Positions 22,184 to 41,790 are shown, numbered from the stretch's first letter. The stretch: 64,000 bases of DNA from Saprospira sp. CCB-QB6 (GCF_028464065.1 NZ_CP116808.1:1199886-1263885); one strand, 5' to 3'. A program made the numbers and translations. Notes: generated from the sequence alone by a model not told the origin.

Positions 22184-22975
22184 TTACTCATCCGAATCAT
22201 CATCTAAGTTCATCGCTGTAGATTGTCCCTTAGGCATCATACTCGTATCATCCCAAAGTTTAGACACCCAAAAGCGAAGAACCGCCTGTTTCTTTTCCTC
22301 TTTATCAAGATAACCATAATTTCCAGCTGTCTTGGCTTCTAATCGGAAATTGGTTTCTGTTCCCGTCCAACGGAAACTAATTTTTCGCCAAAGCAAACCA
22401 TAACTAGCTTTAACGTGCTTTACTACACCTTGACCATAAGTAGCCGTAGCAATGGCATAAGTCAAAGCATATTTAGCTCTTTTCTTTCGTCCCGCAGCAT
22501 GCGCAATAATTTCAAAGGCTTGTACGCCCTCCAAATCGGAAACGATTGGGTGCCAGCGACCATCGGCAGGGATTTCTCCTTGAACAAAGGTACCTACGCG
22601 GCCATTTGCCCCAAGCATTCCATTTACCTCTAGCTTAAAGTTGGGCAAAGTGGTCCCAATTCCAACATTACCTCCTTTGCGTAAGAAAAGGAGACTTTCA
22701 TTTTCGCCATCATTAAAGCTTAAGCCCTCGCTATGTGGAGTGGGATTCATAGAAACGCTAAACGAGGCTTGCGGGTCCCGAATGCTTTCATAGAAGCTCA
22801 TCAAGCGCTTATTTGGGCCTTGAGTGGCCAACATAAGGCCCTCCGTAGAACTTTGAGAAAAACCATCATCAACCTTATTGACGGTAGAGTCGATAAGGTC
22901 GGCAAAGTTTACTTCTGTGGGGACCATGCCCCTCTTGAATAGATTCTTGAGCGTGCTACGCGTGAGTAAAGCCAT
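22184..22975 (-). CDS. Putative baseplate-attached or tail-fibre-like protein (last gene of the cluster)
   Basis: 263 aa, co-oriented and downstream of the baseplate gene. The N-terminus (LKNLFKRGMVPTEVNFADLIDS) resembles phage fibre anchors only loosely. Confidence 0.6.
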   Translation of the reverse strand: MALLTRSTLKNLFKRGMVPTEVNFADLIDSTVNKVDDGFSQSSTEGLMLATQGPNKRLMSFYESIRDPQASFSVSMNPTPHSEGLSFNDGENESLLFLRKGGNVGIGTTLPNFKLEVNGMLGANGRVGTFVQGEIPADGRWHPIVSDLEGVQAFEIIAHAAGRKKRAKYALTYAIATATYGQGVVKHVKASYGLLWRKISFRWTGTETNFRLEAKTAGNYGYLDKEEKKQAVLRFWVSKLWDDTSMMPKGQSTAMNLDDDSDE

Positions 22976-23117
22976 TGGGTTAAATACTTTAACTTAGGTA
23001 AAGGCGGGTGAATGCCTCCAAATTTAAAAAATTGTTTGGAAAAGGCGCAGCCAAAACGATTTTATAATTTAGATTTTCTTAATAACGCCTTTATTTATTG
23101 TTTTTTGCTGCTTTTGA

Positions 23118-23285
23118 GGTGGCGGAGCCGCCTGTGAGCGAAGCGAGCCATGGCCCAGCGCTGCGCAGCAGTGGCCGCAGGCCAGACCTAGCGGGCGCAG
23201 CCCGCGCAGGGCCGAGCAGACTTGCGAGCTGCGAAGCATAGCGGCGGCCGCCCCACTATAAAGGGCGGCCGCGGGCCCCTAAAAA
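23118..23285 (-). repeat. GC-rich interspersed element, variant A reverse, plus a GCGGCCGC hairpin module
   Basis: gccagacc..gggccgagcag..., then agcggcggccgcccc..gggcggccgcgggc. Confidence 0.8.
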
Positions 23286-23307
23286 TGGTTATTCTAGGCC
23301 TAAAAAA

Positions 23308-23342
23308 GGCCCAAAAGTGCGGAAACTTCTGGGCCTAAGTTT
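23308..23342 (-). terminator. Terminator or attenuator after the baseplate gene
   Basis: On the minus strand, the hairpin ggcccagaag..cttttgggcc is followed by TTTTTT, immediately 3' of the stop at 23362. Confidence 0.45.
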
Positions 23343-23361
23343 TTATAATTTTCTAGCTCGT

Positions 23362-26300
23362 TTAATCGTCTAGTTCACGCTCTTCGGTCATTACAAAGTC
23401 TCCATCGAGCATCATATTGTCTAATCCAGCCTTGGCAGGTGATTGGAAAGCCACCTCGTCTAATAAGTAGAGTGGGTTTTTCTCGAAAGGAATGAGGACC
23501 GACCAAGGGGTAGTTGCCTTAAGTAAGGGAGAAGAAGAATTATCGATTGCGGTATCGCCTACATCAAAGCCTTCTCCGCTAGGGAATACCTGTACGGCAG
23601 AGAATTTCGTGACAAAATCGACATATTCTCTTTTTTCGATAAAGCTGAGGAGAACGTCTTTAGCTAGTGTTCCTCCTAGTTCTAATTCTCTTTGGCCGCC
23701 ATACATCCAGGGGCAGACAAAGTCCATAATATCCTTATTCAATTTTTTGAGAAAAGTACCGTTGTTCATGCCTTTTTGGAAGCGCAGACCGCCGGCTACT
23801 TTTACTCTTTCGTAAATAGGGTTACGGAGTTTAATATCGACAAAGGGGGAAGCTAAAGGAGTAAGATAATCTCGGATAGCCTCAAGAGTAGCGTTATTTA
23901 CCATAGGTAGGCGACCTTGATGAGCAGCCTTAATTCGAGGAACGACAACAAGGACCACTTGGCCTTTATCGACAAATTCTTCATGGCCAATATGGGTAAC
24001 GCATTTCACTTGAAAAATGTCGGGAAATTGATCGAGTACTAAGCGTTCATAATCCCAAGCAGACACTGCTCTTCCTTTATGGCGGAGGCGTTCGCTACTT
24101 CGGGTATAGAACTCTTTTTTATTTTCGCCAGGTCGTCCTTCAAAAGAGCCAAAAGGCTGTTGGACAGATCGAATTTGGACCAATGGATTGACCAAATTTT
24201 TGATCTTATTAGCGGCTAGTTTTTCTTCTAAGTGTTCTACTTCGTCTTCGGGTTCTCCAGCCCAGGTTGCAGAAATAGCTTGTGTTGATAGGTGAAGGAC
24301 AGTGGGCATTCGGCTTGCATCTCCGCGGAGAGAGGCTCGCAGCCAAAACTTACCTTTTTCGAAGATCGTGTTATTCTCAGAAATATCTCTGGGGATATCG
24401 AAGGTGATAATTCCAGAATTATTAAAGAAATTGGTGGTATCGTTTAGAATTTGTGTCTGAGAGAACTCCTTCCACTCATCATTTACGAGAAAGCTCCATA
24501 CAATTTCGGCTTGTTTGGCCTCACTGCTTCGGCCCTTCATCATAGAGAAATAGTCTTGATTCTCTTTGAGCTCGAAGTAGACAGAAAGAGTTGCTGGTGG
24601 GTTGAAGTCTTTGATTCCGAGGAAGAGATAAGCATCCTCGTCATAAGCGGGCAAAAGTGTGGGCTTAATTGGGCGGCCTTGAGAGAAGTTACGCATCACG
24701 CCAAAGGGGTGAATATGGAAGAGTTCTTCTACTACACCGCCAGAGCTATTCACTGTACCGATAGACATAATATTAACTTGAGCGGTTGCTGTATAGTCAA
24801 TACTCATGTTTCTGATTACAGGAGTAAAAGGTTGATTCGGAAGCTTTTTCTTCTCTTTAGTTTTGGGGTCTGCGTTATAAGCAGCCACATCAGCATAAAG
24901 ATTTGGAAACTCATCATGGGCGAATGCAGAGGGTGGATTTGTTAATTCCATACGGAAGTAGCCAGTCTGCGTTTCGCTGGTATAAGTGTCTAGTTGTTTA
25001 AGGTCTGCTTGAGGTTCGAGATCAAAAAGCTTAAGATCGATATTATCTAGGCAAGTGGCCGAGCTAATACCGTGAACGTTATCTTCATCCTGTTCAAAGA
25101 GGAAATATTCTTTGACATTATTCTTAGCTTCAGGGAAGAACTCTCCTTCTCGCAAAGCGGATAGTTTGATTCGGTAATCCTCATTTCGAACTCCTAGGCC
25201 ATACTCACGATAGTAGCCTCGGAGGCCTTTTGTATTATCGGGTAGATTATGCCAGTTAATATTGATTTTCAGATTGGTCAGTTCCTTTTTAAAGAGCTCT
25301 GTTTTTCCGATGAGAAGATAAGAACCAAGTTTTGGTGTAGGGCCAAAAGCTTGAAAAGGGATACTGCCTTCTAGTTGGCCATATTCATTGCTGAGGTTTA
25401 GGCGTTTAATTCCTTTAACCTCTACGTCGATGTTAATTCTTTCTAGGCTTAGCTCTTTAAGGAAAGAGTAAGAGTAGGTCACATTTTCATTTTGGTGAAG
25501 GACCTTCATCACAGGAAGAGTCGTGTCGAAGTCGGGGCCTAAAACGGCAGCATCGTAGCCTACAATAGCAGGAGCATTGGCTGAAACGGTAGCGAGCAGA
25601 CTAAACTCAGGGATGTTCCAATTTTCTGGAGGGAGTAGTTCGCAGCTTTTTGCTTCAATCCATCCTTCTTCTCCAGAGAGGAGTAGTTTCAGGCTATTTT
25701 TAAAAATTTTAGAGAAGGCATCTTCTTTAGAGAGCCCTTGATTACGGCTAATATCCTTAATTAAGAGATTAAGGGTATACATAGAAGACTTGTCAAATCG
25801 CATGCGCAATTTAATGCTTCTGTGTCCTTCTTCCATTTCTAAGATAGGAGCGGCCATAGCCCAACCTACTTCGGCATAGACCATTTGGCGTTCATCGGCT
25901 GCTTTCTCGAGTAGTTCTTCTCCGAAAGCGGGCCATTCCTCTTCATTATTGATAAAGCGTTTGCCTAAGCCATCTCTAGAGTTGGCAATAGGTGCGGCAT
26001 ACATATTAGTAATTAGGCGGTAAGAGCTACCGATACCAATTTTTGGATTTTTGCTTACAAAAAGCGTCTTCACCGAATCAACTTTAGCTTGATTCAATTC
26101 GATACCATAATCAGTTTTATAGCGAATAGGCTTGCCATTTTCGTCTACTCCAGCATCGAGTAGTGTACCTGCAGGCAAGAAAAAGCTATCAATATGTTTA
26201 GCTAAATTGAAATAGACATTCACCTGATCGGGTTGTAAGCCTCTTTCTTGCATTTTAAGCACATCGTAATAGTAAAAATCGAGATGCTTTTCGGTTAGGG

Positions 26301-27132
26301 TATTTAGGTGGTCCTGATTATGTTTAAAGAGTTTAACAAAAGCGATAAATAATGCTAAATCAGGGCGGTGATCATCTTTTTCTTTAAGTGATTTCTCTAG
26401 GTATTTTGGTGCTTCTTGTACGATATAGGAAAGCACACTATAAAAGGTCCGGAATTGCAGGCGGATCTTTTTGGTATAATCTTGAATTTTAAAATTGGCT
26501 CTAGGATCTTCTACTTCAATAGCGCGAGCAGAGAGCAACTTTTTAGAGGGGAACCAAATGCTATGAAAGTTCTCTTCAATTTCGTTGGGGCTATAAATCC
26601 CTGTTTGGTGAAACTCTAGATAGCGATCTTGTTCTAAGAGTTCGAGTAGGTTAGAAGAAAGCTGTTGTTTAATTGCGTTTTCCAATTCATTTTCCAGTTC
26701 ATCGGTATCGCCTGGTTGCAAGGTATTCATTTTGAGTGCATGCTCATACCAATCATTGAACTGTTTGGCCATATCGAAGACCTGGGTATACAGAGCCTTA
26801 AGCGCTTCTAGGCGACCAGCTGTGCGGGCTGCATTTTCTAGCTCAGTAATATATTTGGCGTGTTCCTGCTCAATTTTTTTAAGGTCGGTTGCAATAATTG
26901 AGGCCAAAAATACAGAAAGGTCATTGCGCAAAAAGCGCGACCAATCTCCTGCGGGGGAGTTAGTTTGGTCATAGAACTGGACCATTTCGGCATATTTGGC
27001 AGAAAAGGCAAGGAGGTCACTAGTAGAGCGTTCATCTACCTTAATATATTCTGGGATGAGGGCTTTGAGCAATCGTTGGCTCTGCGTTACGCCATTCCAG
27101 GATAGGCTAGATTTATTCTTTTTGGTACTCAT
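23362..27132 (-). CDS. Large baseplate protein (Afp11/gp6 baseplate-J-like, possibly fused with a gp7-like part)
   Basis: 1256 aa, directly downstream of the gp25-like and PAAR genes. Size and position match eCIS baseplate wedge proteins. No motif confirmed by eye. Confidence 0.7.
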   Translation of the reverse strand: MSTKKNKSSLSWNGVTQSQRLLKALIPEYIKVDERSTSDLLAFSAKYAEMVQFYDQTNSPAGDWSRFLRNDLSVFLASIIATDLKKIEQEHAKYITELENAARTAGRLEALKALYTQVFDMAKQFNDWYEHALKMNTLQPGDTDELENELENAIKQQLSSNLLELLEQDRYLEFHQTGIYSPNEIEENFHSIWFPSKKLLSARAIEVEDPRANFKIQDYTKKIRLQFRTFYSVLSYIVQEAPKYLEKSLKEKDDHRPDLALFIAFVKLFKHNQDHLNTLTEKHLDFYYYDVLKMQERGLQPDQVNVYFNLAKHIDSFFLPAGTLLDAGVDENGKPIRYKTDYGIELNQAKVDSVKTLFVSKNPKIGIGSSYRLITNMYAAPIANSRDGLGKRFINNEEEWPAFGEELLEKAADERQMVYAEVGWAMAAPILEMEEGHRSIKLRMRFDKSSMYTLNLLIKDISRNQGLSKEDAFSKIFKNSLKLLLSGEEGWIEAKSCELLPPENWNIPEFSLLATVSANAPAIVGYDAAVLGPDFDTTLPVMKVLHQNENVTYSYSFLKELSLERINIDVEVKGIKRLNLSNEYGQLEGSIPFQAFGPTPKLGSYLLIGKTELFKKELTNLKININWHNLPDNTKGLRGYYREYGLGVRNEDYRIKLSALREGEFFPEAKNNVKEYFLFEQDEDNVHGISSATCLDNIDLKLFDLEPQADLKQLDTYTSETQTGYFRMELTNPPSAFAHDEFPNLYADVAAYNADPKTKEKKKLPNQPFTPVIRNMSIDYTATAQVNIMSIGTVNSSGGVVEELFHIHPFGVMRNFSQGRPIKPTLLPAYDEDAYLFLGIKDFNPPATLSVYFELKENQDYFSMMKGRSSEAKQAEIVWSFLVNDEWKEFSQTQILNDTTNFFNNSGIITFDIPRDISENNTIFEKGKFWLRASLRGDASRMPTVLHLSTQAISATWAGEPEDEVEHLEEKLAANKIKNLVNPLVQIRSVQQPFGSFEGRPGENKKEFYTRSSERLRHKGRAVSAWDYERLVLDQFPDIFQVKCVTHIGHEEFVDKGQVVLVVVPRIKAAHQGRLPMVNNATLEAIRDYLTPLASPFVDIKLRNPIYERVKVAGGLRFQKGMNNGTFLKKLNKDIMDFVCPWMYGGQRELELGGTLAKDVLLSFIEKREYVDFVTKFSAVQVFPSGEGFDVGDTAIDNSSSPLLKATTPWSVLIPFEKNPLYLLDEVAFQSPAKAGLDNMMLDGDFVMTEERELDD

Positions 27133-27196: not shown

Positions 27197-27613
27197 TTAG
27201 AGCTCGGTACCTTCTGCAAGGTAGAAAGGATAGACCATGTTATTACGAGCATTCACCCCCTTAATTTCATAAACTACATTTACATTTACACGGCCACGGA
27301 GTTGTTCGCTTTCATCTACATCGACAGAGATGAGGCGAATACGGGGCTCATGATACAGGATGGCTGTAGTAATGAGATCTTGAATCCGAATTCGGGTAGC
27401 ATTGTTAATGCTTTGAAAAGCTTGGCTATGGATATCGCAACCATAGCTAGGGTTCATGATTCGTTCGCCGGGGAGTGTAGATAATAAGATATTAAGAGAC
27501 TCCTTAATATCTTCTTCGTCTTGAGACATAACAATTCCGCGGGTAGAGTCGCTAAAACGTGGAGGGAAGCTCCAGCCTGAGCCTAAAAATGATTTTTGGA
27601 TATCGTCTGACAT
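27197..27613 (-). CDS. gp25-like baseplate wedge protein (GPW/gp25 family, Afp9-like)
   Basis: 138 aa with LSTLPGERIMNPSYGCDIH, matching the GPW_gp25 core motif. Confidence 0.85.
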   Translation of the reverse strand: MSDDIQKSFLGSGWSFPPRFSDSTRGIVMSQDEEDIKESLNILLSTLPGERIMNPSYGCDIHSQAFQSINNATRIRIQDLITTAILYHEPRIRLISVDVDESEQLRGRVNVNVVYEIKGVNARNNMVYPFYLAEGTEL

Positions 27614-27808: not shown

Positions 27809-27812
27809 ACTA

Positions 27813-28103
27813 CTAACCAATAAGCACCGTAGGGGCTCCAGCTACCACTGCTCCGCCATGGCCACAAGAATCACCAATACGGGCAGCGGGTTTACCTTCA
27901 ATCATGACTGTTCCTGAGCCAGAAGCAATAGAGTCGCCAGCGCAGGCACAGACGGCAGAATCGCCAAGGCGGGCCGCGGGGATTCCAGTCACCATAACAG
28001 TTCCGGCACCGCTAACAATAGGTCCTCCAACATGAGGAGCTGGACCGGGGCAAACGGCGGGGCAAACGTGCATATCGCCAATTCGGGCAGAGGGCATTCC
28101 CAT
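27813..28103 (-). CDS. PAAR-domain spike tip protein
   Basis: 96 aa, Gly/Ala-rich, with two PAAR motifs (GIPAARLGD, GKPAARIGD). Confidence 0.85.
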   Translation of the reverse strand: MGMPSARIGDMHVCPAVCPGPAPHVGGPIVSGAGTVMVTGIPAARLGDSAVCACAGDSIASGSGTVMIEGKPAARIGDSCGHGGAVVAGAPTVLIG

Positions 28104-28124: not shown

Positions 28125-29969
28125 CTAGTTAATTTTCACTAAACCACCTTTCACTTCACATAGTCCGCCGCCTTCTAGCTTAGCAGAGGCAGAACCTTTG
28201 AGTTCCATAGTGGTTGAGCCTTCTCCTTTTACAGCCAAGGCCTTAATAGAGAAATTGGCTGTGGCTTCCATTTTTGTATCGGAACCTGATTTGGTCTCGA
28301 TGTTAATGTCTGCCTCCATTTTAATATTTTTCTTGGCTTTAACGACAAAGTCTCCATCCGTTTCGAAGAGAATTCCATTTTTGTCCATCAACATTTTGTT
28401 GACATTCACGGGGTCTTCGATCAAGATCGTATCTTCATCGTCATTAAGCTCCACGATCATTTTATCCTCTGTAATAATCTTGACGATATTTTTGCCAGGA
28501 TCATCTTGAAGTTCGATACGTGTTTTTCCTTTATTGATAGAGATAGCTTTAAAGATATTGGGATCGGCAGGAATATGCGTTTCCTCGGTGGTAATACCTC
28601 TTCCGCTACTATACATAGAGCCCAAAATGACGGGATAAGTGGGATCAGCATTAAAAAAGCCAACAACCACTTCATCGCCTACTTCGGGATAAAATACAAA
28701 TCCGCAATCTTCGGTGGCATAATAATGCGCCATACGCGCCCAAACGCCTTCACCAGCTTGATCATCAATAATTGGGATATTGATTAAAACGCGAAACTCA
28801 CCATCTGGATCTGAGTCAATTTGCTTAACTACACCATGTTGTAGGCCATGAATAGCCGGTAAAGTTCCTCCTGCTGGGCGAGAGCTGGCCGTAAGGTTGG
28901 CCTCCATATAAGGTTGAGGATCCATACCTAAGCCCACCTCTGTTAACCATTGTCCTTTAAGGATAGTGTGGCGAACTTTGCTTACATAAGCATCGCCGAC
29001 AAAGCGGGTTCCAAAACCAAAAAGCTCAATTGTTTTACCCAATTCTGCTTTGGCCGAACCATAAAACTTCAGACTACCTCGAATTCGAGAGAGATGTCCT
29101 CTTTGATAAACGGAGTCTGCCCAAGACTGGATCACATCTTTAGTTACAGGAGGAGTGGTTTTGACCGTATTTTTGGGTTCAATAACGGCCCCCAACTTAG
29201 CAGAGTCCAAGTCTCCCTGTGCATTAACCTTTGGTTTAGCGCCATCAGCTGTTACAATAGCCAAATCTGTATGACTCCAACTGGTTGCACCAACCTCTTT
29301 ATATTGATAGGTTGAGTCAATATTCATATCCATCTCTACCAAGTCATTTCCATAAGAAATAACGAGTTCAGACTTCTCACTAACCGTAGGTTTCTTAATA
29401 CTAATTTCACCATCATCAATGATAGTCACCAAGCTATTCACATCAGCCCGAGAGTGTATAAAATCCCAATCAGTGCTCCAATATTGAATTAACTTCTTGT
29501 GCTTTCCTTTCGTTGCTTCCACATCCGCAGAAAGTCCAGCCTCACTCACAACTGCCGAAATAATATCCGAATCAAGCTGATCATAAAAAACCTTGTTTTT
29601 CCGGCCAACAGTTAGTTTAAGCGCTTTATCCTTACACTTGAGCACTAGAGCTGCTCCACTATAATTAGACTGCTTAATACCATGCTCTACTAAGATACCT
29701 TTATAAAGGGTTTGCTCTTTACCAGGACCATAACCTGCTTTTACCTCCACTTCTTTTCCCGGCTCAAACATGGCATCCTCAGAGGTCGGAAACTTCTGTT
29801 CCCGAGTATCTCCGTCCTTAAGCGTAATAAGAGCATAAGGAATCTTATTCAATTCCTTTACAATATCTACGCTCTCCACGACCATTGTTTTAGGCACCTC
29901 GGTTCCATCTATCAGTACAAGTACCGACAGATAGCCTTCGCCCATGCCTTTTACTGGAGAATCTGCCAT
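28125..29969 (-). CDS. VgrG / phage late-control-D-like spike protein (gp27-gp5-like, Afp8-like)
   Basis: 614 aa, with beta-rich repeats at the C-terminus and the expected position between the tube genes and PAAR. Confidence 0.75.
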   Translation of the reverse strand: MADSPVKGMGEGYLSVLVLIDGTEVPKTMVVESVDIVKELNKIPYALITLKDGDTREQKFPTSEDAMFEPGKEVEVKAGYGPGKEQTLYKGILVEHGIKQSNYSGAALVLKCKDKALKLTVGRKNKVFYDQLDSDIISAVVSEAGLSADVEATKGKHKKLIQYWSTDWDFIHSRADVNSLVTIIDDGEISIKKPTVSEKSELVISYGNDLVEMDMNIDSTYQYKEVGATSWSHTDLAIVTADGAKPKVNAQGDLDSAKLGAVIEPKNTVKTTPPVTKDVIQSWADSVYQRGHLSRIRGSLKFYGSAKAELGKTIELFGFGTRFVGDAYVSKVRHTILKGQWLTEVGLGMDPQPYMEANLTASSRPAGGTLPAIHGLQHGVVKQIDSDPDGEFRVLINIPIIDDQAGEGVWARMAHYYATEDCGFVFYPEVGDEVVVGFFNADPTYPVILGSMYSSGRGITTEETHIPADPNIFKAISINKGKTRIELQDDPGKNIVKIITEDKMIVELNDDEDTILIEDPVNVNKMLMDKNGILFETDGDFVVKAKKNIKMEADINIETKSGSDTKMEATANFSIKALAVKGEGSTTMELKGSASAKLEGGGLCEVKGGLVKIN

Positions 29970-30005: not shown

Positions 30006-30194
30006 CTATCGATTCATTTTGTACTCCCAAGCTTCCATTGCCCGTCGTACTGCTTCCTGAATCAAAATTTCTTTATCTTTTTCGGTCATTCCCTTTCCCT
30101 GATCCTTCCCATCTTTTTTCCCTTGACCTTTGCCTCCACCATTTTCTGCATTCACATTGGTGTTGACATTCATCTCTTTTACTGTTACTGCCAT
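30006..30194 (-). CDS. Small Lys/Gly-rich protein (62 aa), Afp6-like position
   Basis: Co-oriented small ORF between the Afp5-like tube and the spike genes. Confidence 0.45.
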   Translation of the reverse strand: MAVTVKEMNVNTNVNAENGGGKGQGKKDGKDQGKGMTEKDKEILIQEAVRRAMEAWEYKMNR

Positions 30195-35376: not shown

Positions 35377-35937
35377 CTAAATCTTGCGAATAGATGGAAT
35401 TTCTAGCTCTGGTTTCTTATGCTCAATCGGAATCGTTTTGAAACGATAAAGGACCGAAGGCAAATACTTGGCCCCTACCCCATTCCAAACATTAGATACA
35501 TCCCTAAAATCAGGAGAAACCATTTCGGCCACCAAACGCGTAAGGCTACCCGAAAGCGCTGGCGTATTTTGCTCATTAAAGACGCCTTGGCGACTCTGGA
35601 AAAAAGCAATCACCGAGCTCACAAACTTAAGGCCCTCCAAATAATTTTCATTGGTAAAATAGGCCGAAAACAACATATATATATTGACTTCAACCGGCGG
35701 AATAACCTTAGTAAAATTCCCTCGCTTGTTGGGCTGATAGGTAGCCGTCGTGCTCTTATTTCGCTCTGCCTCAATATTGATGATCGTCATCACGATCTTA
35801 TCGGCCTCTTGCACCGCCATCGATCCATCGGCATTTACTAGATGCGAAATGATGACCTTATCCTCTAAAATATTGTGTTTAGACTGCAAAAAGCGATTGA
35901 GCTCGCCCACCACAGCCGTGACAACTTTATCAATCAT
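35377..35937 (-). CDS. Tail terminator / cap protein, DUF4255-like (Afp16-like)
   Basis: 186 aa. It is the first gene upstream of the sheath module, as in many eCIS loci. The assignment rests on size and position only. Confidence 0.55.
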   Translation of the reverse strand: MIDKVVTAVVGELNRFLQSKHNILEDKVIISHLVNADGSMAVQEADKIVMTIINIEAERNKSTTATYQPNKRGNFTKVIPPVEVNIYMLFSAYFTNENYLEGLKFVSSVIAFFQSRQGVFNEQNTPALSGSLTRLVAEMVSPDFRDVSNVWNGVGAKYLPSVLYRFKTIPIEHKKPELEIPSIRKI

Positions 35938-35942
35938 AATCC

Positions 35943-36200
35943 TTATTCTTCTTCCTCCTCAGGCTCTGGCTGAGTCAGTGTTTTGATAGAAAGCGCAATA
36001 AAACGCATAATATAAATGCCCAAAAAAGAGGTAAAATACCCTATCAAGTACATCCAGAATACCCAGTTGCGCTCAATTTCACTCATATTTACCACCTCTC
36101 TGGTATAACCAAAGAACCAAAGGAACACCACCGCCATGGGCAGCGAGACGATCAGGGCCACAATCAGCCAAATGAACTCTCTTGCGATTATTTTAAACAT
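35943..36200 (-). CDS. Small membrane protein (2 TM helices, poly-Glu C-terminus)
   Basis: 85 aa ending 6 bp before the cap gene, with hydrophobic segments LIVALIVSLPMAVVFLWFF and MYLIGYFTSFLGIYIM. Confidence 0.5.
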   Translation of the reverse strand: MFKIIAREFIWLIVALIVSLPMAVVFLWFFGYTREVVNMSEIERNWVFWMYLIGYFTSFLGIYIMRFIALSIKTLTQPEPEEEEE

Positions 36201-36252
36201 GCTCTATTTTTGTTAGCCTCGATATCGCACAAGGTTGTTTTTGATTTTTATG

Positions 36253-36405: not shown

Positions 36406-36410
36406 AGGAC

Positions 36411-38588
36411 CTAAGGCAATCGTTTTTGCTGGCGCTTGAGCAACATACTGGCTACCCAAGTCAGAATCCCCCCCAAAATGGTTCCTACCAAAAAGGTAGC
36501 TACCCAATTATTAAACAAGCCCAAATTATTGCCGATGAACAAAACGATTGTGGCAAAAAGGACCAAGTAGAAAATTCGAAAAGCACCACTATAAAACATT
36601 ACATCTCGCACCTTCCAATCTAATAAAGAGAAGGCAAAACCCACAGCCATAAAAAATAACATGGCCAAAAGGGTCGAGAACACCACCCCATTTGCCTTTT
36701 TGATTTGATAAGCTATGGTGTAATGAATTTTATTGCTCTTTGCTACTTTATAGCGTTCAATTTTCTCCAACTTGGTATTCCAAACCTCTCTGGCCGCAAA
36801 CTTTTCTTCCAAGGTGCGCCACAATTCGGTATACCCATGATCATAACTAAGGGCCCAAACAGCAACTCCCCCCATTTTCTTCTCTAGGGCCAAGTCCATC
36901 TTCAAGCCCAAACTCGTCGAGTTATCAAAGTAAATCTCTTTGAGCGGATTGCCCAAAGTATCTACCAAAACGCCAATCATGCTATTGTGCATTTTGTCAT
37001 AACGCACTTTTAATCGGTTGGCCCGAGCCAGATTTCGAATTTCTGAATAAGCCATATAGCCCTCAAAACTTACCCCTGCATCACCTTCCAAGGCCCAAAC
37101 TGCCCCATGATAAGGCAGGGCAAGGACAAGACTAGTACTATGTTTGGCTCCAATTGCTTGAATGTAGCGATCAATAGTTTCCTCCAGACTTTCTTCCAAG
37201 CTATCCGATTCCGAAATAATCCCCTCTAAACCAGAGAAAAGATCAAATTCATGAATCTGAATAGTATCCTGTTCAGGTTCGAACAAGAACATATTGATTG
37301 GATTTCGGGCCGCATAATATTTAGCCAACTCAGCCTGGCAAGCAGTTGCTTTTAATGCTCTGCGGAGATACGGATTATCACGAAGCTCTTTGGTCGCTCG
37401 GATAATGCCCAAAACAGTCCCCAAATCATAGGTATTATACTCCAAATTTGTAATCCCCGCTCTGAGGATGTACATGTTTAAGGTATCCAGCAACTGTCGT
37501 TGATAACCTTCTGTATGTAGCAGTTCAATATTCTTAATTGCAGAAGAAGTCCGAAGCACAGAGTCTAAGCTAATCTTCTCTGAGTAACTCATATAGCTAC
37601 GCTTCCATTTTGCTTCGGGCTTGAGCAAAGGCGTCAAAGGTCCTTTGCTTACGCCTGTTGGTCGCAAATGAAAATTGTAGGCAGAAACAATAAAAATATC
37701 TACCCAATTTTGCAAAAAGCCTAGATCATAGACCTTTTCAGGATCGCGTAAAGGCAAGCTCATCGCAATAGTAAAGTTGGGATTTTCTTCGCGTAGTGCA
37801 AAAGAGAGCTCACGAACAAAATCCTCAAAATCTGCTTTATACTCGATAGGTAATTCTTCAAAGTTAATTTCTACTCCATCTCCCCCAGCATAATTGAGCA
37901 CAGCAATCAAGCTATCAATAAGGTTGCGTTGAACTACCTTTGCTGAAGTAAAAAAGATTTCACTACGCTCCCCTCTATGGCAAGAAAGCGTAAGCATAGC
38001 TTTACAACTATCTTTATGCGCTGTTTTTACAAAATCCCCATTCTTAAACTGATCAATGGCTTCAAAATCTTCATAGCCACCAGTAAAGGGATTCAATTTA
38101 TAGGCATAAAAAGAGGCATGGGTCAATAAACCAAAATTATAGTTGTGGTATTTTTCGCCGGCCCAAGAGGGATGCCAACCCCAAACCACCAAGTTTTGCT
38201 TACTATTGATTTCGGTAGACTGAACATAGAGTGCTGGCTCTTGCTCATACATCTCCTCTGCGCCCAATGGTTTTTCATAACGCGAATAGCGTCCCTTGGC
38301 CATTACTTTAAGGTCCGTTTCTGTCGGCATGCCCCACCAATGGCGAGCTAGCGTTCTAAAACGAGTTTGGCTTAGTTCTAAGACCACCTTATTTTCAATA
38401 ATAGTATCCTTCTCCCGAAGCTTTTCGAGTCGTTGCAAACGCAACTCTGAAGAATCCTCTGCCGTAGGGGTTAGGATTTGGGTGCCATTCAATTCTTTAC
38501 CGTCTAGCTGTGCCAAAAGACCAGAAGTTGCCCAGGCAAAACAAAAGAGTAAGAGTAAAATGGTCCGTATATGTGTCCACATCAACAT
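36411..38588 (-). CDS. Membrane-anchored protein with a GH18 (chitinase-like) domain carrying a degenerate catalytic motif, copy 1
   Basis: Signal peptide, then GGDGVEINFEEL in place of DGxDxDWE, then three C-terminal TM helices. 725 aa. Confidence 0.8.
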   Translation of the reverse strand: MLMWTHIRTILLLLFCFAWATSGLLAQLDGKELNGTQILTPTAEDSSELRLQRLEKLREKDTIIENKVVLELSQTRFRTLARHWWGMPTETDLKVMAKGRYSRYEKPLGAEEMYEQEPALYVQSTEINSKQNLVVWGWHPSWAGEKYHNYNFGLLTHASFYAYKLNPFTGGYEDFEAIDQFKNGDFVKTAHKDSCKAMLTLSCHRGERSEIFFTSAKVVQRNLIDSLIAVLNYAGGDGVEINFEELPIEYKADFEDFVRELSFALREENPNFTIAMSLPLRDPEKVYDLGFLQNWVDIFIVSAYNFHLRPTGVSKGPLTPLLKPEAKWKRSYMSYSEKISLDSVLRTSSAIKNIELLHTEGYQRQLLDTLNMYILRAGITNLEYNTYDLGTVLGIIRATKELRDNPYLRRALKATACQAELAKYYAARNPINMFLFEPEQDTIQIHEFDLFSGLEGIISESDSLEESLEETIDRYIQAIGAKHSTSLVLALPYHGAVWALEGDAGVSFEGYMAYSEIRNLARANRLKVRYDKMHNSMIGVLVDTLGNPLKEIYFDNSTSLGLKMDLALEKKMGGVAVWALSYDHGYTELWRTLEEKFAAREVWNTKLEKIERYKVAKSNKIHYTIAYQIKKANGVVFSTLLAMLFFMAVGFAFSLLDWKVRDVMFYSGAFRIFYLVLFATIVLFIGNNLGLFNNWVATFLVGTILGGILTWVASMLLKRQQKRLP

Positions 38589-38630
38589 AAGTCTTGGGAA
38601 TAAAATCGTCTGAATAAGAAATTGGGAGAA

Positions 38631-40517
38631 TTAAGGGGCTTTGGCTTGTTGCTTATCTACTAAATAGATGATACCATAAGTAAAGAATCCCCCAATAACC
38701 AGCCCCAACAATAAAATAGATGCTCCACCACGGAAAAGTCCATAGTAAGACCCCACCATAAGCAAGAGAGCCGAAAACCAGCCCAGATAAAGCATTCTAA
38801 AACGTCCATTATTAAAGAGGGTTCTGCGCACCTGCTTATTAAAGAGGGCCATGCAAAAACCAGCAGAAGCAAAAATGGCCCAGAAAAGGAGTACTGCTAA
38901 AAGCGTAGCCCCCCAACTTCTAGCCGCCTTACTTGCTGCCCCTAATTTTTCATATGCTTCTAATTGAGGCATCTCTATGGTTGTAAACTCCGAAGAAAGC
39001 GTATTCCATACATTATAATAGCCCAAATCATACCCCAAAGGCCAAACACCTACACCAGCCAAGCCCATATCATTGATAAATTGATACTTGAGCTGTAAAG
39101 TCCGCACATCATCATAATAAAGCTCCGTCCGTACGATATCATCAATTTGTAAGGCTCCTCCTACTTTCTTGAACAAAGTATCTTCTTTGGACCAAACATA
39201 AGAGTAGTAGTTCGAGTCAATTCCCACGGCCTTACTATCACGCATTACAAAATCATTTTGGATTTTGCTATAGGGTACATATCCCTCTAAATCAAAGCCC
39301 CGATTACTACTCTTCCAAAGTGTTCCATAATTGGGCAAAGCCAAAATGAGACGATTCGCTGCATCTCTACCAATAGATGCAATATAATGCTCTACCGATG
39401 AGCGAATATCTTCTTCGCCTGAGGCTGCCGTAAAATTGAGTGGAGCAACAGGCTTCTTAATGATTTCTCCCGTCTTGGGATCATTGTGGTAATCAACCGC
39501 CTTAATAATAAAGAAATCGACATGTTCTTTTAATTTGCTCAAATTAAATACGCCCTCAATATCCACAGCTGGCACACTCATGCAAACTGCTAAATCTGGA
39601 GAGACCGCCCGCAAGGTGAATGAAAGCTGTCGTACAAATTTGAGGAATTCTATTTGAGCAAGAGCAGGTACATTTTCAAAGTTAATTTCTACTCCATCGG
39701 CCTTAGAGGTATCCATCAAATAGACAATATTATCTATGAGGTTTTGCCGCTGCTTTGCATTTTCAGGCGCCAAGAAAAAAGCATTGTTATCATAACTATG
39801 ACTCGTAATACTCAACAAAACTTTACAGTCTTTGGCATGAGCCGTAGGCACAATCCCATTATCAGGATCATCCCCACCCAAAAAGTCATGTATCACTGTC
39901 GAATCTAAAGCTTCGCCTGTATAAGGATCAATATCATAACCATAATAAGCAATAGCCGAAAGCAACCCATAATCATAGGTCTTATATGCATTGCCATTAA
40001 AATGCGCATGCCAACCAAAGACAGTAACAAATTGGCTAGCTGTCCCTTTTACCAGTTTGGGCACCCGAAATTCCGAGCTATCAATTGCACTAATAGAATC
40101 TCTTTGACGCTCAAACTTCAATTTAGCTTCCAAATCAGCATCACTAGGCGTCATCCACCACTGCCCCAAAAGATCAATAAAACGCTTTTTGTTATTGGGG
40201 TTTTCTATTTCCCGCTTTGCATTTTCGTCCTCTATCAACTCTTCTAAAGTAGGATCGTTCTCTGGGATAAAATCTTCCTTCTTAAAAGAAGGCAATTGCT
40301 TATACTCATCAGATTTGGTCCGATAAGCATTCTTAACGGTAGTTTTTCGACTCTCAAACTCATCCCGTAAGGCCCTAGTCGCTTTTTTCTCTAGAGCATT
40401 TCCACCACCTTTTTTGGCAGTTTGGATGGCAATACGGCTCTGTCCCCAGCTATTTGTTGCCAATAATAAGCAACTTAACAAGAGTAGTTTGGCCGTTGTA
40501 TTGATGAAAATTCGCAT
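38631..40517 (-). CDS. Membrane-anchored GH18-like protein, copy 2 (paralog)
   Basis: 628 aa with ADGVEINFENV and the same C-terminal TM architecture. Confidence 0.8.
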   Translation of the reverse strand: MRIFINTTAKLLLLSCLLLATNSWGQSRIAIQTAKKGGGNALEKKATRALRDEFESRKTTVKNAYRTKSDEYKQLPSFKKEDFIPENDPTLEELIEDENAKREIENPNNKKRFIDLLGQWWMTPSDADLEAKLKFERQRDSISAIDSSEFRVPKLVKGTASQFVTVFGWHAHFNGNAYKTYDYGLLSAIAYYGYDIDPYTGEALDSTVIHDFLGGDDPDNGIVPTAHAKDCKVLLSITSHSYDNNAFFLAPENAKQRQNLIDNIVYLMDTSKADGVEINFENVPALAQIEFLKFVRQLSFTLRAVSPDLAVCMSVPAVDIEGVFNLSKLKEHVDFFIIKAVDYHNDPKTGEIIKKPVAPLNFTAASGEEDIRSSVEHYIASIGRDAANRLILALPNYGTLWKSSNRGFDLEGYVPYSKIQNDFVMRDSKAVGIDSNYYSYVWSKEDTLFKKVGGALQIDDIVRTELYYDDVRTLQLKYQFINDMGLAGVGVWPLGYDLGYYNVWNTLSSEFTTIEMPQLEAYEKLGAASKAARSWGATLLAVLLFWAIFASAGFCMALFNKQVRRTLFNNGRFRMLYLGWFSALLLMVGSYYGLFRGGASILLLGLVIGGFFTYGIIYLVDKQQAKAP

Positions 40518-40554
40518 TTCTTTCTGCTTTTCAAATTCTCAATGGGGTGTCTGA

Positions 40555-41595
40555 CTAGCCTTCTTCGGCCTTGAATACTGGAATCTTCTTTTGCAAAAAG
40601 ATCTCTTGGACTCGCTCCCGCTTGATAATCTCCAAGATTTCGGCTCGCTTGAGTTGAAATTTGGCCACCTTAATATAAACCCGCACTCCTGTCACCGTAT
40701 TGAGGTTCCTAAAACACATTTTCAACTGCTTGTAGGTACCCGCCTTATAAGCAGGGATTACCCCAAATGGAGGAGGATTCAAGCCCTGCGTCCCCACATA
40801 ATTATCATTGGCCCTAGGATCCTTAAAATCATAGCGAAGGTTTCGAGCCAAAGAATTATTTGCCATCGGCAAAGTTTCTGTCAAACCTAAACCATACGCC
40901 ATAAGCGGTTCCGTCACCTCTGCCGCAATCCAACTAAGCTTAGGGTTGCTCTTGAGATTTTGATACTCTTGATGGGCCTTATCCCCAATGCCAATCCAAT
41001 AGACAGCATATTGATAATCCCCCTCCAATAAAGCTTCCGTAATGCAACTATCGGCCAAAGACTGATAGTCTAGGGCCGGCTGTAGATCCAACTGAATTTC
41101 TGTAATATCTGGATAGGGAATCGTATCGGGATAAGCCGTGCGCATGGTATCTATTGAGGTCGTTACCATCACATCATCCAATACCAAAGAGTCTTGAAAA
41201 GACATGGCCGGAAACTTATAAATCTGCATACGAAAAGCACGACCAAACAACCCCCGATTTTTCATCACAAAATTATGCACTCCATCCTTAGACGCAATAA
41301 ATGACTCCCGCTCTAAACTACGCACCTTCTTCATGCGCATCTTAAACTGAGTGCCTGGCAATTCCACAATGAGACGGCCCAATTTACGGGCGCCAATGGT
41401 TTGCATATCAATAACAACCTGCTCGCCTTGCTTGAGGTCATAGGAAAGTAGCTTCTTTTTCCAAGCGCCTAATTCTACCAACTCATCAAAGAGAACAATG
41501 CGTTCATCATAAGATTGTTGGGCCTGCATGGGGCTATACAGTAGGCATAACAATAGGGCAAACCACTGCCAATGCAGCTTTTTGGGTATTCTCAT
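40555..41595 (-). CDS. Secreted hypothetical protein
   Basis: Start trimmed to MRIPKKLHWQWFALLLCLLYSPMQAQQ (signal peptide). First gene of the co-oriented block. Confidence 0.65.
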   Translation of the reverse strand: MRIPKKLHWQWFALLLCLLYSPMQAQQSYDERIVLFDELVELGAWKKKLLSYDLKQGEQVVIDMQTIGARKLGRLIVELPGTQFKMRMKKVRSLERESFIASKDGVHNFVMKNRGLFGRAFRMQIYKFPAMSFQDSLVLDDVMVTTSIDTMRTAYPDTIPYPDITEIQLDLQPALDYQSLADSCITEALLEGDYQYAVYWIGIGDKAHQEYQNLKSNPKLSWIAAEVTEPLMAYGLGLTETLPMANNSLARNLRYDFKDPRANDNYVGTQGLNPPPFGVIPAYKAGTYKQLKMCFRNLNTVTGVRVYIKVAKFQLKRAEILEIIKRERVQEIFLQKKIPVFKAEEG

Positions 41596-41790
41596 ATATC
41601 CGTAGCATCTAAGGTTCTGGGGCAAAATTGGCAATTAAAAGTATAGTGTGTGGGCCAAAATCTGCTAGTACAAGCCCAAATTAAAGCTTTTTTCAAAATT
41701 AACCTTAAAATTCTAGGGCCTTTTCTAAACAAAACCTTAAAGGTCCATCAATCGTCTAGCTGTCAAAGTTTTAACAGAGATTAGTTTTTT

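What the first reader, a model, noticed from the sequence alone, without database searches (positions are those of the whole stretch)
22184..41634. Expected eCIS parts are missing: no AAA+ ATPase, no tape-measure, no LysM hub; an acidic 375-aa protein sits between cap and sheath
Afp/PVC-type systems normally encode an Afp15-like double-AAA+ ATPase, a tape-measure protein (Afp14) and a LysM-containing tube initiator (Afp7). None is recognisable in the roughly 20 kb co-oriented block. The only AAA+ gene in the window is housekeeping ftsH. The nearby 1119-aa NTPase is STAND-type, not a Cdc48-like ring ATPase. The 375-aa acidic ORF (33936-35063) and the 62-aa and 263-aa ORFs have no assignable role. 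They could be novel structural parts (length determinant, initiator) or cargo.
Basis: inference. Interest (0 to 1): 0.6.

Follow-up and report, generated by a model that had tools for sequence, protein, structure and literature searches.

The report
Dispersed Saprospira contractile injection gene cluster
This block is the main gene cluster of the phage-tail-like, membrane-anchored injection system (T6SS subtype iv, the classical "rhapidosome") of the predatory bacterium Saprospira; its "mystery" genes are already-described parts, and the parts that look missing are absent from the window because this bacterial family scatters the genes around the chromosome.

Summary
The ORFs and the absences are real. 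No tape-measure (PF19268), CIS ATPase or LysM tube initiator (PF19266) lies anywhere in the 64 kb. FtsH is the only AAA+ protein, and the 1119-aa protein is nSTAND1+WD40. The "unassignable" ORFs are known parts of clade Ib contractile injection systems:
- The acidic 375-aa protein is the cap adaptor Cis16B/Alg16B. Its family profile hits 7b5i_AB at 7.5e-15 and 7adz_1A at 8.5e-14, and the Foldseek top hit is 7b5i_AB.
- The 62-aa protein is the DUF5908/Afp6 spike plug.
- The 263-aa protein is Cis13-like.
- The 1256-aa protein is Cis11.

The organism is Saprospira (95% identity to S. grandis). The published homologue is the Aureispira T6SSiv used in ixotrophy.

Related Bacteroidota carry Cis11-Cis13-Cis12-TMP-ATPase in one run. 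Here the cluster stops after Cis13. I found Cis12 alone at 58866-62036, and it is equally solitary in five other Saprospiraceae loci. The likeliest reading is a dispersed gene set, not novel replacements. I could not locate Saprospira's TMP, ATPase or Cis7.

Four conserved envelope proteins head the cluster, two of them GH18 proteins with transmembrane anchors. They are untested candidates for the trans-envelope complex.

This is a new member of a known kind, of modest interest.

The parts
40555..41634 (-). First gene of the cluster. The ORF is 359 aa; the likely true start is Met14 at 41595. It has an N-terminal signal peptide and belongs to no known family.
   Evidence: No Pfam, NCBIfam or PHROG hit. 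Signal-peptide-like N-terminus. Conserved at the head of the cluster in relatives L001 and L002 at 46% identity. A weak homologue lies next to the Lewinella cluster (L009).
38631..40517 (-). GH18-domain envelope protein, 628 aa: signal peptide, GH18 domain and C-terminal transmembrane helices.
   Evidence: Pfam Glyco_hydro_18 2.3e-27. Hydrophobic N-terminus and TM windows at 534-621. The variant active-site motif DGVEINFE is conserved in relatives. 57-59% identical in L001 and L002.
36411..38588 (-). Second GH18-domain envelope protein, 725 aa, with the same architecture as the first (a paralogue).
   Evidence: Pfam Glyco_hydro_18 6.2e-24. TM windows at 631-718. DGVEINFE motif conserved.
35943..36200 (-). 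Membrane protein of 85 aa with two transmembrane helices and an acidic tail.
   Evidence: Two hydrophobic segments. 68-76% identical and in the same position in L001 and L002.
35377..35937 (-). Cap / tail terminator Cis16A (short form, 186 aa).
   Evidence: Pfam Pvc16_N 4.6e-30. PDB hits: 9r9n_B 3.4e-17, 7b5i_AA All3327 9.5e-15, 7adz_0A AlgoCIS cap 1.6e-10.
33936..35063 (-). Cap adaptor Cis16B/Alg16B. This is the 'acidic 375-aa protein'.
   Evidence: The profile of 24 family members hits 7b5i_AB All3326 at 7.5e-15, 7adz_1A 'cap adaptor protein' at 8.5e-14 and 9r9n_C SalCis16b at 1.3e-08. For the AlphaFold model (pLDDT 66.5, pTM 0.61) the top Foldseek hit is 7b5i_AB, E=1.2e-11, probability 1.00. 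The gene order cap-adaptor-sheath is the same as all3327-all3326-all3325.
32386..33879 (-). Sheath Cis2 (497 aa, single copy).
   Evidence: Pfam Phage_sheath_1C. PDB hits: SalCIS 6.5e-155, AlgoCIS 6.8e-107, tCIS All3325 8.7e-95, against about 1e-48 for Afp/PVC.
31818..32273 (-). Inner tube protein Cis1 (151 aa).
   Evidence: Pfam Phage_T4_gp19 3.5e-34. 80% identical to the relatives' tube gene.
31111..31569 (-). Second tube protein (152 aa), a Cis1 paralogue.
   Evidence: Pfam gp19 1.8e-27. hhalign against the Cis1 family gives E=1.3e-41. Orthologues in L001 and L002 carry a 330-410-aa N-terminal repeat extension that is absent here.
30361..31050 (-). Cis5-like tube adaptor (229 aa). It has a gp19 fold with an N-terminal extension and a glycine-rich insertion, and no LysM domain.
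   Evidence: Pfam gp19 9e-13 over residues 90-221. hhalign gives E=3.4e-11 against Cis5 and no match to Cis7/CIS_tube (E=0.26). Weak NCBIfam CIS5_fam hit. PDB hits are tube and Cis5-type chains only.
30006..30194 (-). Spike plug Cis6/Afp6 (62 aa).
   Evidence: Pfam DUF5908 at 28.0 bits, cut-off 27.7. The afp6 slot in Serratia entomophila is annotated as a DUF5908 family protein. It lies directly upstream of the VgrG gene. Its layout is strand, Gly/Lys loop, helix, as described for Alg6. No direct PDB sequence hit.
28125..29969 (-). Spike Cis8 (VgrG-like, 614 aa).
   Evidence: Pfam Phage_base_V 5.6e-20, weak Phage_GPD.
27813..28103 (-). PAAR tip protein Cis10 (96 aa).
   Evidence: Pfam PAAR_motif 1.1e-24.
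27197..27613 (-). Sheath initiator Cis9 (gp25-like, 138 aa).
   Evidence: Pfam GPW_gp25 8e-26.
23362..27132 (-). Baseplate wedge protein Cis11 (1256 aa), the long clade Ib form.
   Evidence: PDB hits: 7b5h_AH All3317 1.3e-121, 7aeb_G Alg11 4.5e-118, SalCIS 1.2e-108, Pvc11 1.5e-43, Afp11 1.1e-27.
22184..22975 (-). Cis13-like baseplate-attached fibre or anchor protein (263 aa). It is the last gene of the block.
   Evidence: The N-terminal 40 aa match All3316 (Cis13), E=0.009, and Afp13 residues 66-93. Homologues at 33-42% identity sit between Cis11 and Cis12 in L007, L010, L012, L017, L018 and L024. The family is large, with 155 representatives at E<1e-30. No TM helix.
58866..62036 (-). Baseplate wedge protein Cis12 (1056 aa). 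It is encoded alone, about 17 kb from the block, among housekeeping genes.
   Evidence: PDB hits: 7aeb_A Alg12 1.5e-86, All3315 8.3e-76, SalCis12 5.1e-41, Pvc12 and Afp12. 95% identical to S. grandis DSM 2844 SapgrDRAFT_0933. Solitary in the same way in L004, L006, L008, L025 and L026.
62117..62299 (-). Conserved 60-aa ORF immediately upstream of Cis12. Its function is unknown.
   Evidence: 97% identical in S. grandis DSM 2844 and 48% identical in the more distant L008, in the same position.
17006..20365 (-). nSTAND1 NTPase + WD40 protein (1119 aa). It is a neighbour of the cluster, possibly an associated regulator, and not a CIS ATPase.
   Evidence: Pfam nSTAND1 2.4e-88 plus WD40. An nSTAND1-WD40 gene also flanks the contiguous Lewinella cluster.

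Best explanation
**What the block is.** It is the main locus of a clade Ib contractile injection system in Saprospira. It is the counterpart of the Aureispira T6SS subtype iv that kills prey during ixotrophy, and of the historical 'rhapidosomes'.

**What the block encodes.**
- A bipartite cap: Cis16A plus the 375-aa cap adaptor Cis16B, which links the cap to the last sheath ring.
- One sheath protein.
- Two Cis1-type tube proteins and a Cis5-like tube adaptor.
- The Cis6 plug, which sits in the spike cavity.
- The VgrG spike, the PAAR tip and the gp25-like sheath initiator.
- The long wedge protein Cis11.
- A Cis13-like baseplate fibre or anchor.
- Four conserved envelope proteins at the head of the cluster.

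**Why parts look missing.** In related Bacteroidota the genes that follow Cis13 are Cis12, the tape measure Cis14 and the AAA ATPase Cis15. In Saprospiraceae this tail of the operon has been broken off and dispersed. Cis12 is shown to be solitary, 17 kb away.

**Shown versus inferred.** Shown: the identities of the parts, the break point after Cis13, and the solitary Cis12. Inferred: Cis14, Cis15 and probably a Cis7-type LysM initiator are encoded at other chromosomal sites rather than replaced by the unassigned ORFs; and the system is membrane-anchored.
For: **Part identities.**
- Cap adaptor.
- Cap.
- Sheath, with clade Ib structures as best hits.
- Cis11.
- Cis12.
- Plug.
- Cis13.
- Cis5-like versus Cis7.

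**Organism.** Cis12 is 95% identical to the S. grandis DSM 2844 protein.

**Literature.**
- Bipartite cap, plug and cage in AlgoCIS and tCIS.
- Aureispira T6SSiv, with a cis14 tape measure that is required for assembly and killing, a uniform 420-nm length, rhapidosomes interpreted as T6SSiv, and S. grandis noted to carry a CIS cluster.
- Split CIS loci are known, including the Amoebophilus T6SSiv.

**Canonical gene order.** Cis11-Cis13-Cis12-TMP-AAA is seen in six related loci.

**Dispersal.** Cis12 is solitary in six Saprospiraceae loci, counting the window.

**Conservation.** All ORFs are intact and conserved in relatives. The sheath is 84-87% identical and the adaptor about 50%.
Against: I could not find the Saprospira tape measure, ATPase or Cis7.
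- They are not in the 64-kb window.
- No AAA or tape-measure domain is annotated among the roughly 8 kb of genes beyond the window's right end in the syntenic S. grandis DSM 2844 locus.
- Scans of genome and metagenome collections with the tape-measure C-terminal domain recovered only Lewinella-like loci.

So 'encoded elsewhere' is an inference, drawn from Cis12 and from Aureispira cis14. The Aureispira gene table is an image that I could not read. I therefore do not know where cis14 lies there, or whether Aureispira has cis7 or cis15.

The plug assignment rests on a Pfam score just above the cut-off plus position; there is no direct PDB hit.
Confidence: 0.75

Rival explanations
1. The Saprospiraceae system is truly reduced. 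It has no LysM initiator (Cis7) and no dedicated AAA ATPase anywhere in the genome. The tube is seeded on the spike by the Cis5-like 229-aa protein together with the plug, and assembly or turnover needs no ATPase.
For: - Neither gene is in the 64-kb window.
- The slot between Cis6 and VgrG that holds Cis7 in Lewinella and Afp is only 37 bp here, and is also empty in relatives L001-L003.
- The 229-aa protein has an extra N-terminal extension and a glycine-rich insertion.
- The preprint on Aureispira never mentions cis15 or cis7 in its text.
Against: - A survey using Cis7 as one of its screening proteins found it in 638 of 639 CIS clusters.
- More than 85% of eCIS-like loci have Afp7 and Afp15.
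- The Amoebophilus T6SSiv is listed with gp48/gp54-type baseplate components.
- Cis12 shows that absence from the cluster does not mean absence from the genome.
- The Aureispira genes were named cis1 to cis16.
Confidence: 0.15
2. One reading: the 375-aa, 62-aa and 263-aa products are novel structural parts (length determinant, tube initiator) or cargo that stand in for the missing Afp14, Afp7 and Afp15.
For: - None of the three has a named Pfam family apart from DUF5908.
- The 375-aa protein on its own gives only a weak PDB hit, E=0.019.
Against: - The family profile and the predicted fold place the 375-aa protein with three solved cap adaptors.
- The 62-aa protein is in the Afp6 family, whose AlgoCIS member Alg6 is the solved spike plug.
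- The 263-aa protein is the Cis13 orthologue by position and by N-terminal motif.
- None is long enough or helical enough to measure a tube of several hundred nm. The Lewinella tape measure is 1855 aa.
Confidence: 0.03
3. The locus is a decaying remnant. Rearrangement removed Cis12, the tape measure and the ATPase, and the remaining genes no longer make a working machine.
For: - The cluster ends abruptly after Cis13, next to an opposite-strand pdhA.
- GC-rich repeat elements have invaded almost every intergenic gap.
Against: - All 16 genes are intact and match relatives in length.
- Cis12 is intact and 95% conserved between Saprospira strains.
- The same dispersed layout is stable across several Saprospiraceae genera.
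- Aureispira, a member of the same family, makes functional T6SSiv, and rhapidosomes were first described in ixotrophy-positive strains such as Saprospira.
Confidence: 0.05

Closest known systems
Aureispira sp. CCB-QB1 T6SS subtype iv (ixotrophy system; Lien et al., bioRxiv 10.1101/2024.01.29.577165)
   Same: - Same family (Saprospiraceae).
- The paper places the S. grandis sheath next to the Aureispira sheath in its tree and notes a CIS cluster in S. grandis.
- Clade Ib parts, including the Cis11 extension.
- Cis12 is solitary in Aureispira anguillae as it is here.
   Different: - I could not read the Aureispira gene table, so a gene-by-gene match was not tested.
- Aureispira has a cis14 tape measure, and none was found here.
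- The Cis1 paralogue in the closest metagenomic relatives carries a long N-terminal repeat extension that Saprospira lacks.
AlgoCIS of Algoriphagus machipongonensis (PDB 7ADZ, 7AEB; PMC8894135)
   Same: - Bipartite cap (Alg16A + Alg16B), Alg6 plug, long Alg11, Alg12 and a single sheath.
- All have sequence matches here.
   Different: - AlgoCIS is an extracellular system encoded by one contiguous 18-gene cluster, with a LysM-bearing Alg7 and DUF4157 cargo genes.
- Here the cluster is split, no LysM protein or DUF4157 gene is in the window, and four envelope proteins are attached to the cluster.
Thylakoid-anchored CIS of Anabaena PCC 7120 (PDB 7B5H, 7B5I; PMC8894136)
   Same: - Identical local gene order: cap, adaptor, sheath (all3327, all3326, all3325), and Cis11 followed by Cis13.
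- Cis16B is the best structural match of the 375-aa protein.
- The Cis13 N-terminus matches.
   Different: - Anabaena Cis13 has a transmembrane helix, and Cis12 follows it directly.
- Here Cis13 has no TM helix and Cis12 is elsewhere.
Lewinella sp. W8 CIS cluster (locus L007/L009)
   Same: - Same order (Saprospirales).
- Orthologues of sheath, tube, VgrG, PAAR, gp25, Cis11, Cis13 and Cis12 at 33-69% identity.
- An nSTAND1-WD40 gene lies nearby.
   Different: Lewinella is contiguous. It has Cis7 (CIS_tube + LysM/tail_X), a 1855-aa CIS_TMP and a 481-aa AAA ATPase directly after Cis12.
Afp / PVC (subtype Ia eCIS of Serratia and Photorhabdus)
   Same: It shares the core: tube, sheath, Afp6, VgrG, gp25, PAAR, Afp11, Afp12, the Afp13 N-terminal motif and the Afp16 N-domain.
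   Different: - Afp/PVC have three sheath paralogues and a long single-protein cap with no adaptor.
- They carry Afp7, Afp14 and Afp15 in the cluster.
- They act extracellularly.
- Their matches here are much weaker than the clade Ib matches.
T6SSiv of Amoebophilus asiaticus
   Same: - Clade Ib.
- Genes are encoded at separate loci.
- A Cis13 homologue is proposed as an inner-membrane anchor.
   Different: - Reported to lack a trans-envelope complex.
- Listed with a tape measure and gp48/gp54-like parts.
- I made no direct sequence comparison.

Membership tests
Clade Ib contractile injection systems (AlgoCIS / tCIS / MAC / T6SSiv / SalCIS) | The sheath is most similar to clade Ib sheaths. | tested here: met
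   SalCIS 6.5e-155, AlgoCIS 6.8e-107 and tCIS 8.7e-95, against Afp/PVC at about 1e-48. This is a ranking of similarity; I built no tree.
Clade Ib contractile injection systems (AlgoCIS / tCIS / MAC / T6SSiv / SalCIS) | Bipartite cap: a short Cis16A plus a separate cap adaptor Cis16B. | tested here: met
   The cap is 186 aa and has only the Pvc16_N domain. The 375-aa family profile hits three solved adaptors, and the Foldseek top hit is 7b5i_AB.
Clade Ib contractile injection systems (AlgoCIS / tCIS / MAC / T6SSiv / SalCIS) | Long Cis11 carrying the extra (cage) domains. | tested here: met
   It is 1256 aa. Best hits are the 1231-aa All3317 and the 1050-aa Alg11, E about 1e-120. I did not model the cage domain itself.
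Clade Ib contractile injection systems (AlgoCIS / tCIS / MAC / T6SSiv / SalCIS) | Cis6/Afp6 spike plug. | tested here: met
   DUF5908 at 28.0 bits against a cut-off of 27.7. Afp6 is annotated as DUF5908. It lies next to the VgrG gene. No PDB sequence hit, so support is moderate.
Clade Ib contractile injection systems (AlgoCIS / tCIS / MAC / T6SSiv / SalCIS) | Cis12 wedge partner of Cis11. | tested here: met
   Present, but 17 kb away at 58866-62036. Alg12 hit 1.5e-86.
Clade Ib contractile injection systems (AlgoCIS / tCIS / MAC / T6SSiv / SalCIS) | Cis7 tube initiator with a LysM domain. | tested here: not met
   No PF19266 or LysM hit anywhere in the window. hhalign shows that the 229- and 152-aa proteins are not Cis7. 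The rest of the genome was not searchable.
Clade Ib contractile injection systems (AlgoCIS / tCIS / MAC / T6SSiv / SalCIS) | Tape measure (CIS_TMP, PF19268) and Cis15 AAA ATPase. | tested here: not met
   Absent from the 64-kb window. Collection scans did not recover a Saprospira copy. The whole genome could not be tested with these tools.
T6SS subtype iv (membrane-anchored mode of action) | The baseplate is anchored to the inner membrane and fires on contact, rather than being released. | not testable with these tools
   The support is indirect. The close relative Aureispira is anchored. Four signal-peptide or TM proteins are conserved in the cluster. A Cis13 homologue is present, and it is proposed as an anchor in other systems.
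Afp/PVC-type eCIS (subtype Ia) | Three sheath paralogues, a long (about 295 aa) single-protein cap, and Afp7, Afp14 and Afp15 within one contiguous cluster. | tested here: not met
   One sheath gene, a 186-aa cap plus adaptor, and none of Afp7, Afp14 or Afp15 in the window.
Cap adaptor family (Cis16B / Alg16B / SalCis16b) | Sequence and fold similarity to solved adaptors, and a gene position between cap and sheath. | tested here: met
   Profile E-values 7.5e-15, 8.5e-14 and 1.3e-08. Foldseek E=1.2e-11 with TM about 0.44 over 325 columns, using a medium-confidence model. Position.

The most novel reading that the evidence does not exclude
The four conserved envelope proteins at the head of the cluster may be the still-unidentified building blocks of the trans-envelope complex and/or antenna base seen by cryo-tomography in the Aureispira T6SSiv. 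They are a signal-peptide protein of about 350 aa, two paralogous GH18-domain proteins with a signal peptide, three C-terminal transmembrane helices and a fixed variant motif DG[VI]EINFE, and an 85-aa two-helix membrane protein.

In addition, Saprospiraceae may build the tube on the spike without a LysM-type Cis7, using the modified Cis5-like 229-aa protein instead.
Probability: 0.3. Interest if true: 0.6.

Novelty: new member of a known kind. Interest (0 to 1): 0.3.

Why it matters
The main value here is in preventing a wrong call. A reader using the Afp/PVC checklist would label this locus an incomplete or exotic eCIS with novel parts. It is in fact the Saprospira version of a recently described predatory T6SSiv, and its odd ORFs are the cap adaptor, plug and Cis13 that cryo-EM work defined in 2022.

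Two points are useful beyond that:
- The gene set of this family is stably dispersed. Cis12 sits alone in six loci from several genera. Cluster-based CIS finders and completeness checks will therefore under-call it.
- The cluster gives concrete, testable candidates for the trans-envelope complex, whose composition the Aureispira preprint does not name: two membrane-anchored GH18-like proteins, an exported protein and a small membrane protein.

Tried and rejected
**Attempts that led nowhere:**
- Exact-sequence look-ups of two window proteins (455 aa and 1056 aa) found nothing, so the window's own strain is not in the contig collection.
- A homologue search with the Lewinella tape-measure C-terminal domain returned 47 distant proteins and no Saprospiraceae.
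- The single-protein scan of genome contigs and the alignment scan of metagenome contigs recovered only Lewinella-like loci.
- tblastn of the tape-measure domain against plasmids gave no Saprospira record.
- The 62-aa protein has no PDB sequence hit.
- A single-sequence AlphaFold model of the 263-aa protein was unusable, at pLDDT 33. Homologues taken from fetched loci could not be submitted as an alignment.
- The Aureispira gene table (Table S1) is held only as an image.

**Readings considered and rejected:**
- The 104-aa ORF at 36193-36507 and the 106-aa ORF at 41917-42237 are not genes. They are read-throughs of repeat DNA.
- The 229-aa protein is not a LysM-less Cis7, because hhalign places it with Cis5.
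- The GH18 proteins are unlikely to be lumen cargo, because of their signal peptide and C-terminal TM helices.

Full report
**1. The observation.**

The window carries 17 co-oriented minus-strand ORFs from 41634 down to 22184. One of them, the 104-aa ORF at 36193-36507, is later rejected as repeat read-through (section 6).

Pfam assigns a Pvc16_N cap, a sheath, three gp19-fold tube proteins, DUF5908, a VgrG-type spike, PAAR, gp25 and, weakly, Baseplate_J.

The 375-aa ORF at 33936-35063 lies between cap and sheath and is acidic: pI 4.61, 19.5% Asp+Glu.

No ORF of 110 aa or more that I scanned matches a tape measure, a LysM/CIS_tube initiator or a CIS ATPase. The scans covered the block and most of the rest of the window.

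The only AAA+ protein is FtsH (47971-49998). The 1119-aa protein is nSTAND1 plus WD40.

tblastn of the Lewinella tape measure, Cis7 and ATPase, and of Serratia Afp7, Afp14 and Afp15, against all six frames of the window finds only the generic AAA domain of FtsH.

**2. The 'unassignable' ORFs.**

*The 375-aa protein.*
- On its own it gave only a weak PDB hit to All3326 of Anabaena (E=0.019).
- It has 25 homologues in the large protein collection, mostly 43-51% identical.
- A profile of 24 family members hits three solved cap adaptors: All3326 (7b5i_AB) at 7.5e-15, the AlgoCIS 'cap adaptor protein' (7adz_1A) at 8.5e-14 and SalCis16b (9r9n_C) at 1.3e-08.
- An AlphaFold model built on the same alignment is of medium quality (pLDDT 66.5, pTM 0.61; the core at 90-345 is good). 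Its top Foldseek match is 7b5i_AB, E=1.2e-11, probability 1.00. All other hits are generic Ig folds at E>5e-4.
- The papers describe this protein as Cis16B/Alg16B. It forms a hexamer that links the short cap Cis16A to the last sheath ring, and its deletion gives incomplete particles.
- The gene order cap, adaptor, sheath equals all3327, all3326, all3325.

*The 62-aa protein.*
- It scores just above the Pfam cut-off for DUF5908.
- RefSeq annotates the afp6 slot of the Serratia entomophila cluster as DUF5908.
- Alg6/Cis6, the Afp6 orthologue, is the trimeric plug in the spike cavity and is essential for assembly.
- The 62-aa sequence has the same layout as described for Alg6: a strand, a flexible Gly/Lys loop and a helix.
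- There is no direct PDB sequence hit.

*The 263-aa protein.*
- Its first 40 residues match Cis13 of Anabaena (All3316) and residues 66-93 of Afp13.
- Homologues at 33-42% identity sit exactly between Cis11 and Cis12 in six related loci.
- The family is large: 155 representatives at E<1e-30, many of them 230-300 aa and matching end to end.
- Cis13 homologues are proposed as membrane anchors in T6SSiv-like systems.

*The 1256-aa protein.* It is Cis11: All3317 at 1.3e-121 and Alg11 at 4.5e-118.

**3. Organism and family.**

A 1056-aa ORF with no Pfam hit at 58866-62036 is Cis12: Alg12 at 1.5e-86 and All3315 at 8.3e-76. It is 95% identical to a Saprospira grandis DSM 2844 protein.

The sheath matches clade Ib structures far better than Afp/PVC.

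The literature places this as follows. Aureispira, in the same family, uses a clade Ib system as a membrane-anchored T6SSiv to kill prey. That system is 420 nm long and has a cis14 tape measure whose disruption abolishes assembly. The old 'rhapidosomes' are interpreted as these structures, and S. grandis is noted to carry a CIS cluster.

**4. Why parts look missing.**

In Lewinella sp. W8 (same order) the cluster is contiguous. Its gene order is:
- sheath
- tube
- Cis5
- DUF5908
- Cis7 (CIS_tube + LysM/tail_X)
- VgrG
- PAAR
- gp25
- Cis11
- Cis13
- Cis12
- a 1855-aa CIS_TMP
- a 481-aa AAA ATPase

Five further loci repeat the run Cis11-Cis13-Cis12-TMP-ATPase.

In the window the operon ends right after Cis13 and abuts an opposite-strand pdhA. 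Cis12 lies alone about 17 kb upstream, among uvrC, ftsH, a radical-SAM gene and similar genes.

Cis12 is solitary in the same way in S. grandis DSM 2844, Aureispira anguillae and three other Saprospiraceae contigs. Dispersal is therefore a stable family trait. Split CIS loci are already on record, including the Amoebophilus T6SSiv.

By extension, the tape measure and ATPase are most likely at other sites. I could not show this. The DSM 2844 locus extends about 8 kb beyond the window's right end, and no AAA or tape-measure domain is annotated among its genes. My scans with the tape-measure domain found only Lewinella-like loci.

**5. The tube initiator.**

The window has three gp19-fold genes. 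By hhalign:
- the 152-aa protein is a Cis1 paralogue (E=1.3e-41);
- the 229-aa protein is Cis5-like (E=3.4e-11; there is also a weak NCBIfam CIS5_fam hit);
- neither resembles Cis7.

The Cis7 slot between Cis6 and VgrG is 37 bp here, and it is also empty in relatives L001-L003.

A survey that used Cis7 as one of its screening proteins found it in 638 of 639 CIS clusters. A relocated gene is therefore more likely than a lost one, but loss is not excluded.

**6. Additional conserved genes.**

Four genes upstream of the cap are conserved in order and sequence in relatives:
- a signal-peptide protein of 346-359 aa;
- two GH18 paralogues, each with a signal peptide, a GH18 domain carrying the fixed motif DG[VI]EINFE (canonical DxDxDxE, with the Glu retained) and C-terminal transmembrane helices;
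- an 85-aa protein with two transmembrane helices.

The Aureispira preprint describes a trans-envelope complex and antennae but names no components. These four proteins are candidates by inference only.

The 104-aa ORF is repeat read-through, not a gene.

**7. Verdict.**

The absences are real for the window. The proposal of novel parts is not supported.

The locus is the Saprospira member of the known clade Ib / T6SSiv kind, with a dispersed gene set.

Novelty: a new member of a known kind. Interest: 0.3.

The most novel reading that remains open concerns the envelope quartet and a possible Cis7-less hub.

Noticed in passing
window 58866-62036 (-) and 62117-62299 (-): Cis12, the baseplate wedge partner of Cis11, is encoded alone among housekeeping genes about 17 kb from the main cluster. 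A 60-aa ORF sits just upstream of it. That ORF is conserved in S. grandis DSM 2844 (97% identity) and in a more distant relative, L008 (48%).
   Followed up: yes
window 17006-20365 (-); L007 23580-24146; L009 about 14400-18100: An nSTAND1 NTPase with WD40 repeats lies about 2 kb from the end of the cluster. A protein with the same architecture flanks the contiguous Lewinella cluster, so the association may be functional (a regulator or sensor?).
   Followed up: partly
window 36411-40517 (-): The two GH18 paralogues have a signal peptide and C-terminal transmembrane helices. Their active-site motif is the variant DG[VI]EINFE rather than the canonical DxDxDxE, and it is strictly conserved in relatives. 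Whether they are active is unknown.
   Followed up: partly
window, for example 22015-22106, 23152-23285, 27738-27810, 30248-30352, 35252-35371, 36243-36406, 41799-41929, 42329-42459, 47801-47915, 57025-57208, 62397-62530: A family of GC-rich interspersed repeat elements, about 50-135 nt long, occurs in either orientation in almost every intergenic gap, including six gaps inside the injection-system operon. The core is GGGCCGAGCGA[AG][CT]AGCGAGC with flanking stem-loop-like modules. The elements explain the long gaps relative to related loci and several spurious ORFs.
   Followed up: partly
window 41954-42289: A 42-bp tandem repeat of about 7 copies (88% matches) lies in the intergenic region upstream of the first gene of the cluster. 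Translated, it gives the spurious 106-aa ORF at 41917-42237.
   Followed up: no
L001 13382-14803; L002 13386-15059 (orthologues of window 31111-31569): In the closest metagenomic relatives the second tube protein is 473-557 aa. Its N-terminal extension consists of tandem repeats of about 47 aa (...NPVLNSHTHALH...) in front of the gp19 domain. Saprospira has only the 152-aa tube domain. The extension could point into the tube lumen.
   Followed up: no
L016, L019, L020, L021, L023: Some metagenomic loci carry a shorter gene arrangement, in which a gene with the CIS tape-measure C-terminal domain directly follows the tube gene or PAAR. Examples are adaptor-sheath-tube-VgrG-PAAR-TMP domain (L019) and cap-sheath-tube-TMP domain (L020). 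This looks like a different cluster layout in the same bacterial group.
   Followed up: no
window 8693-11792 (-): Three tandem paralogues of DUF6976 (327-339 aa each, E about 1e-112 to 1e-119), followed by a MORN-repeat protein at 12103-12816.
   Followed up: no
window 42525-45200 (-): An 891-aa protein with SprB repeats and a T9SS C-terminal sorting domain lies directly upstream of the cluster. In Aureispira, T9SS substrates (the grappling hooks and SprB) act together with the T6SSiv in ixotrophy.
   Followed up: no
window 2098-2289 (-) and 55937-56110 (+): Two tandem pairs of tRNA genes: two tRNA-Gln(ttg) and two identical tRNA-Asn(gtt).
   Followed up: yes
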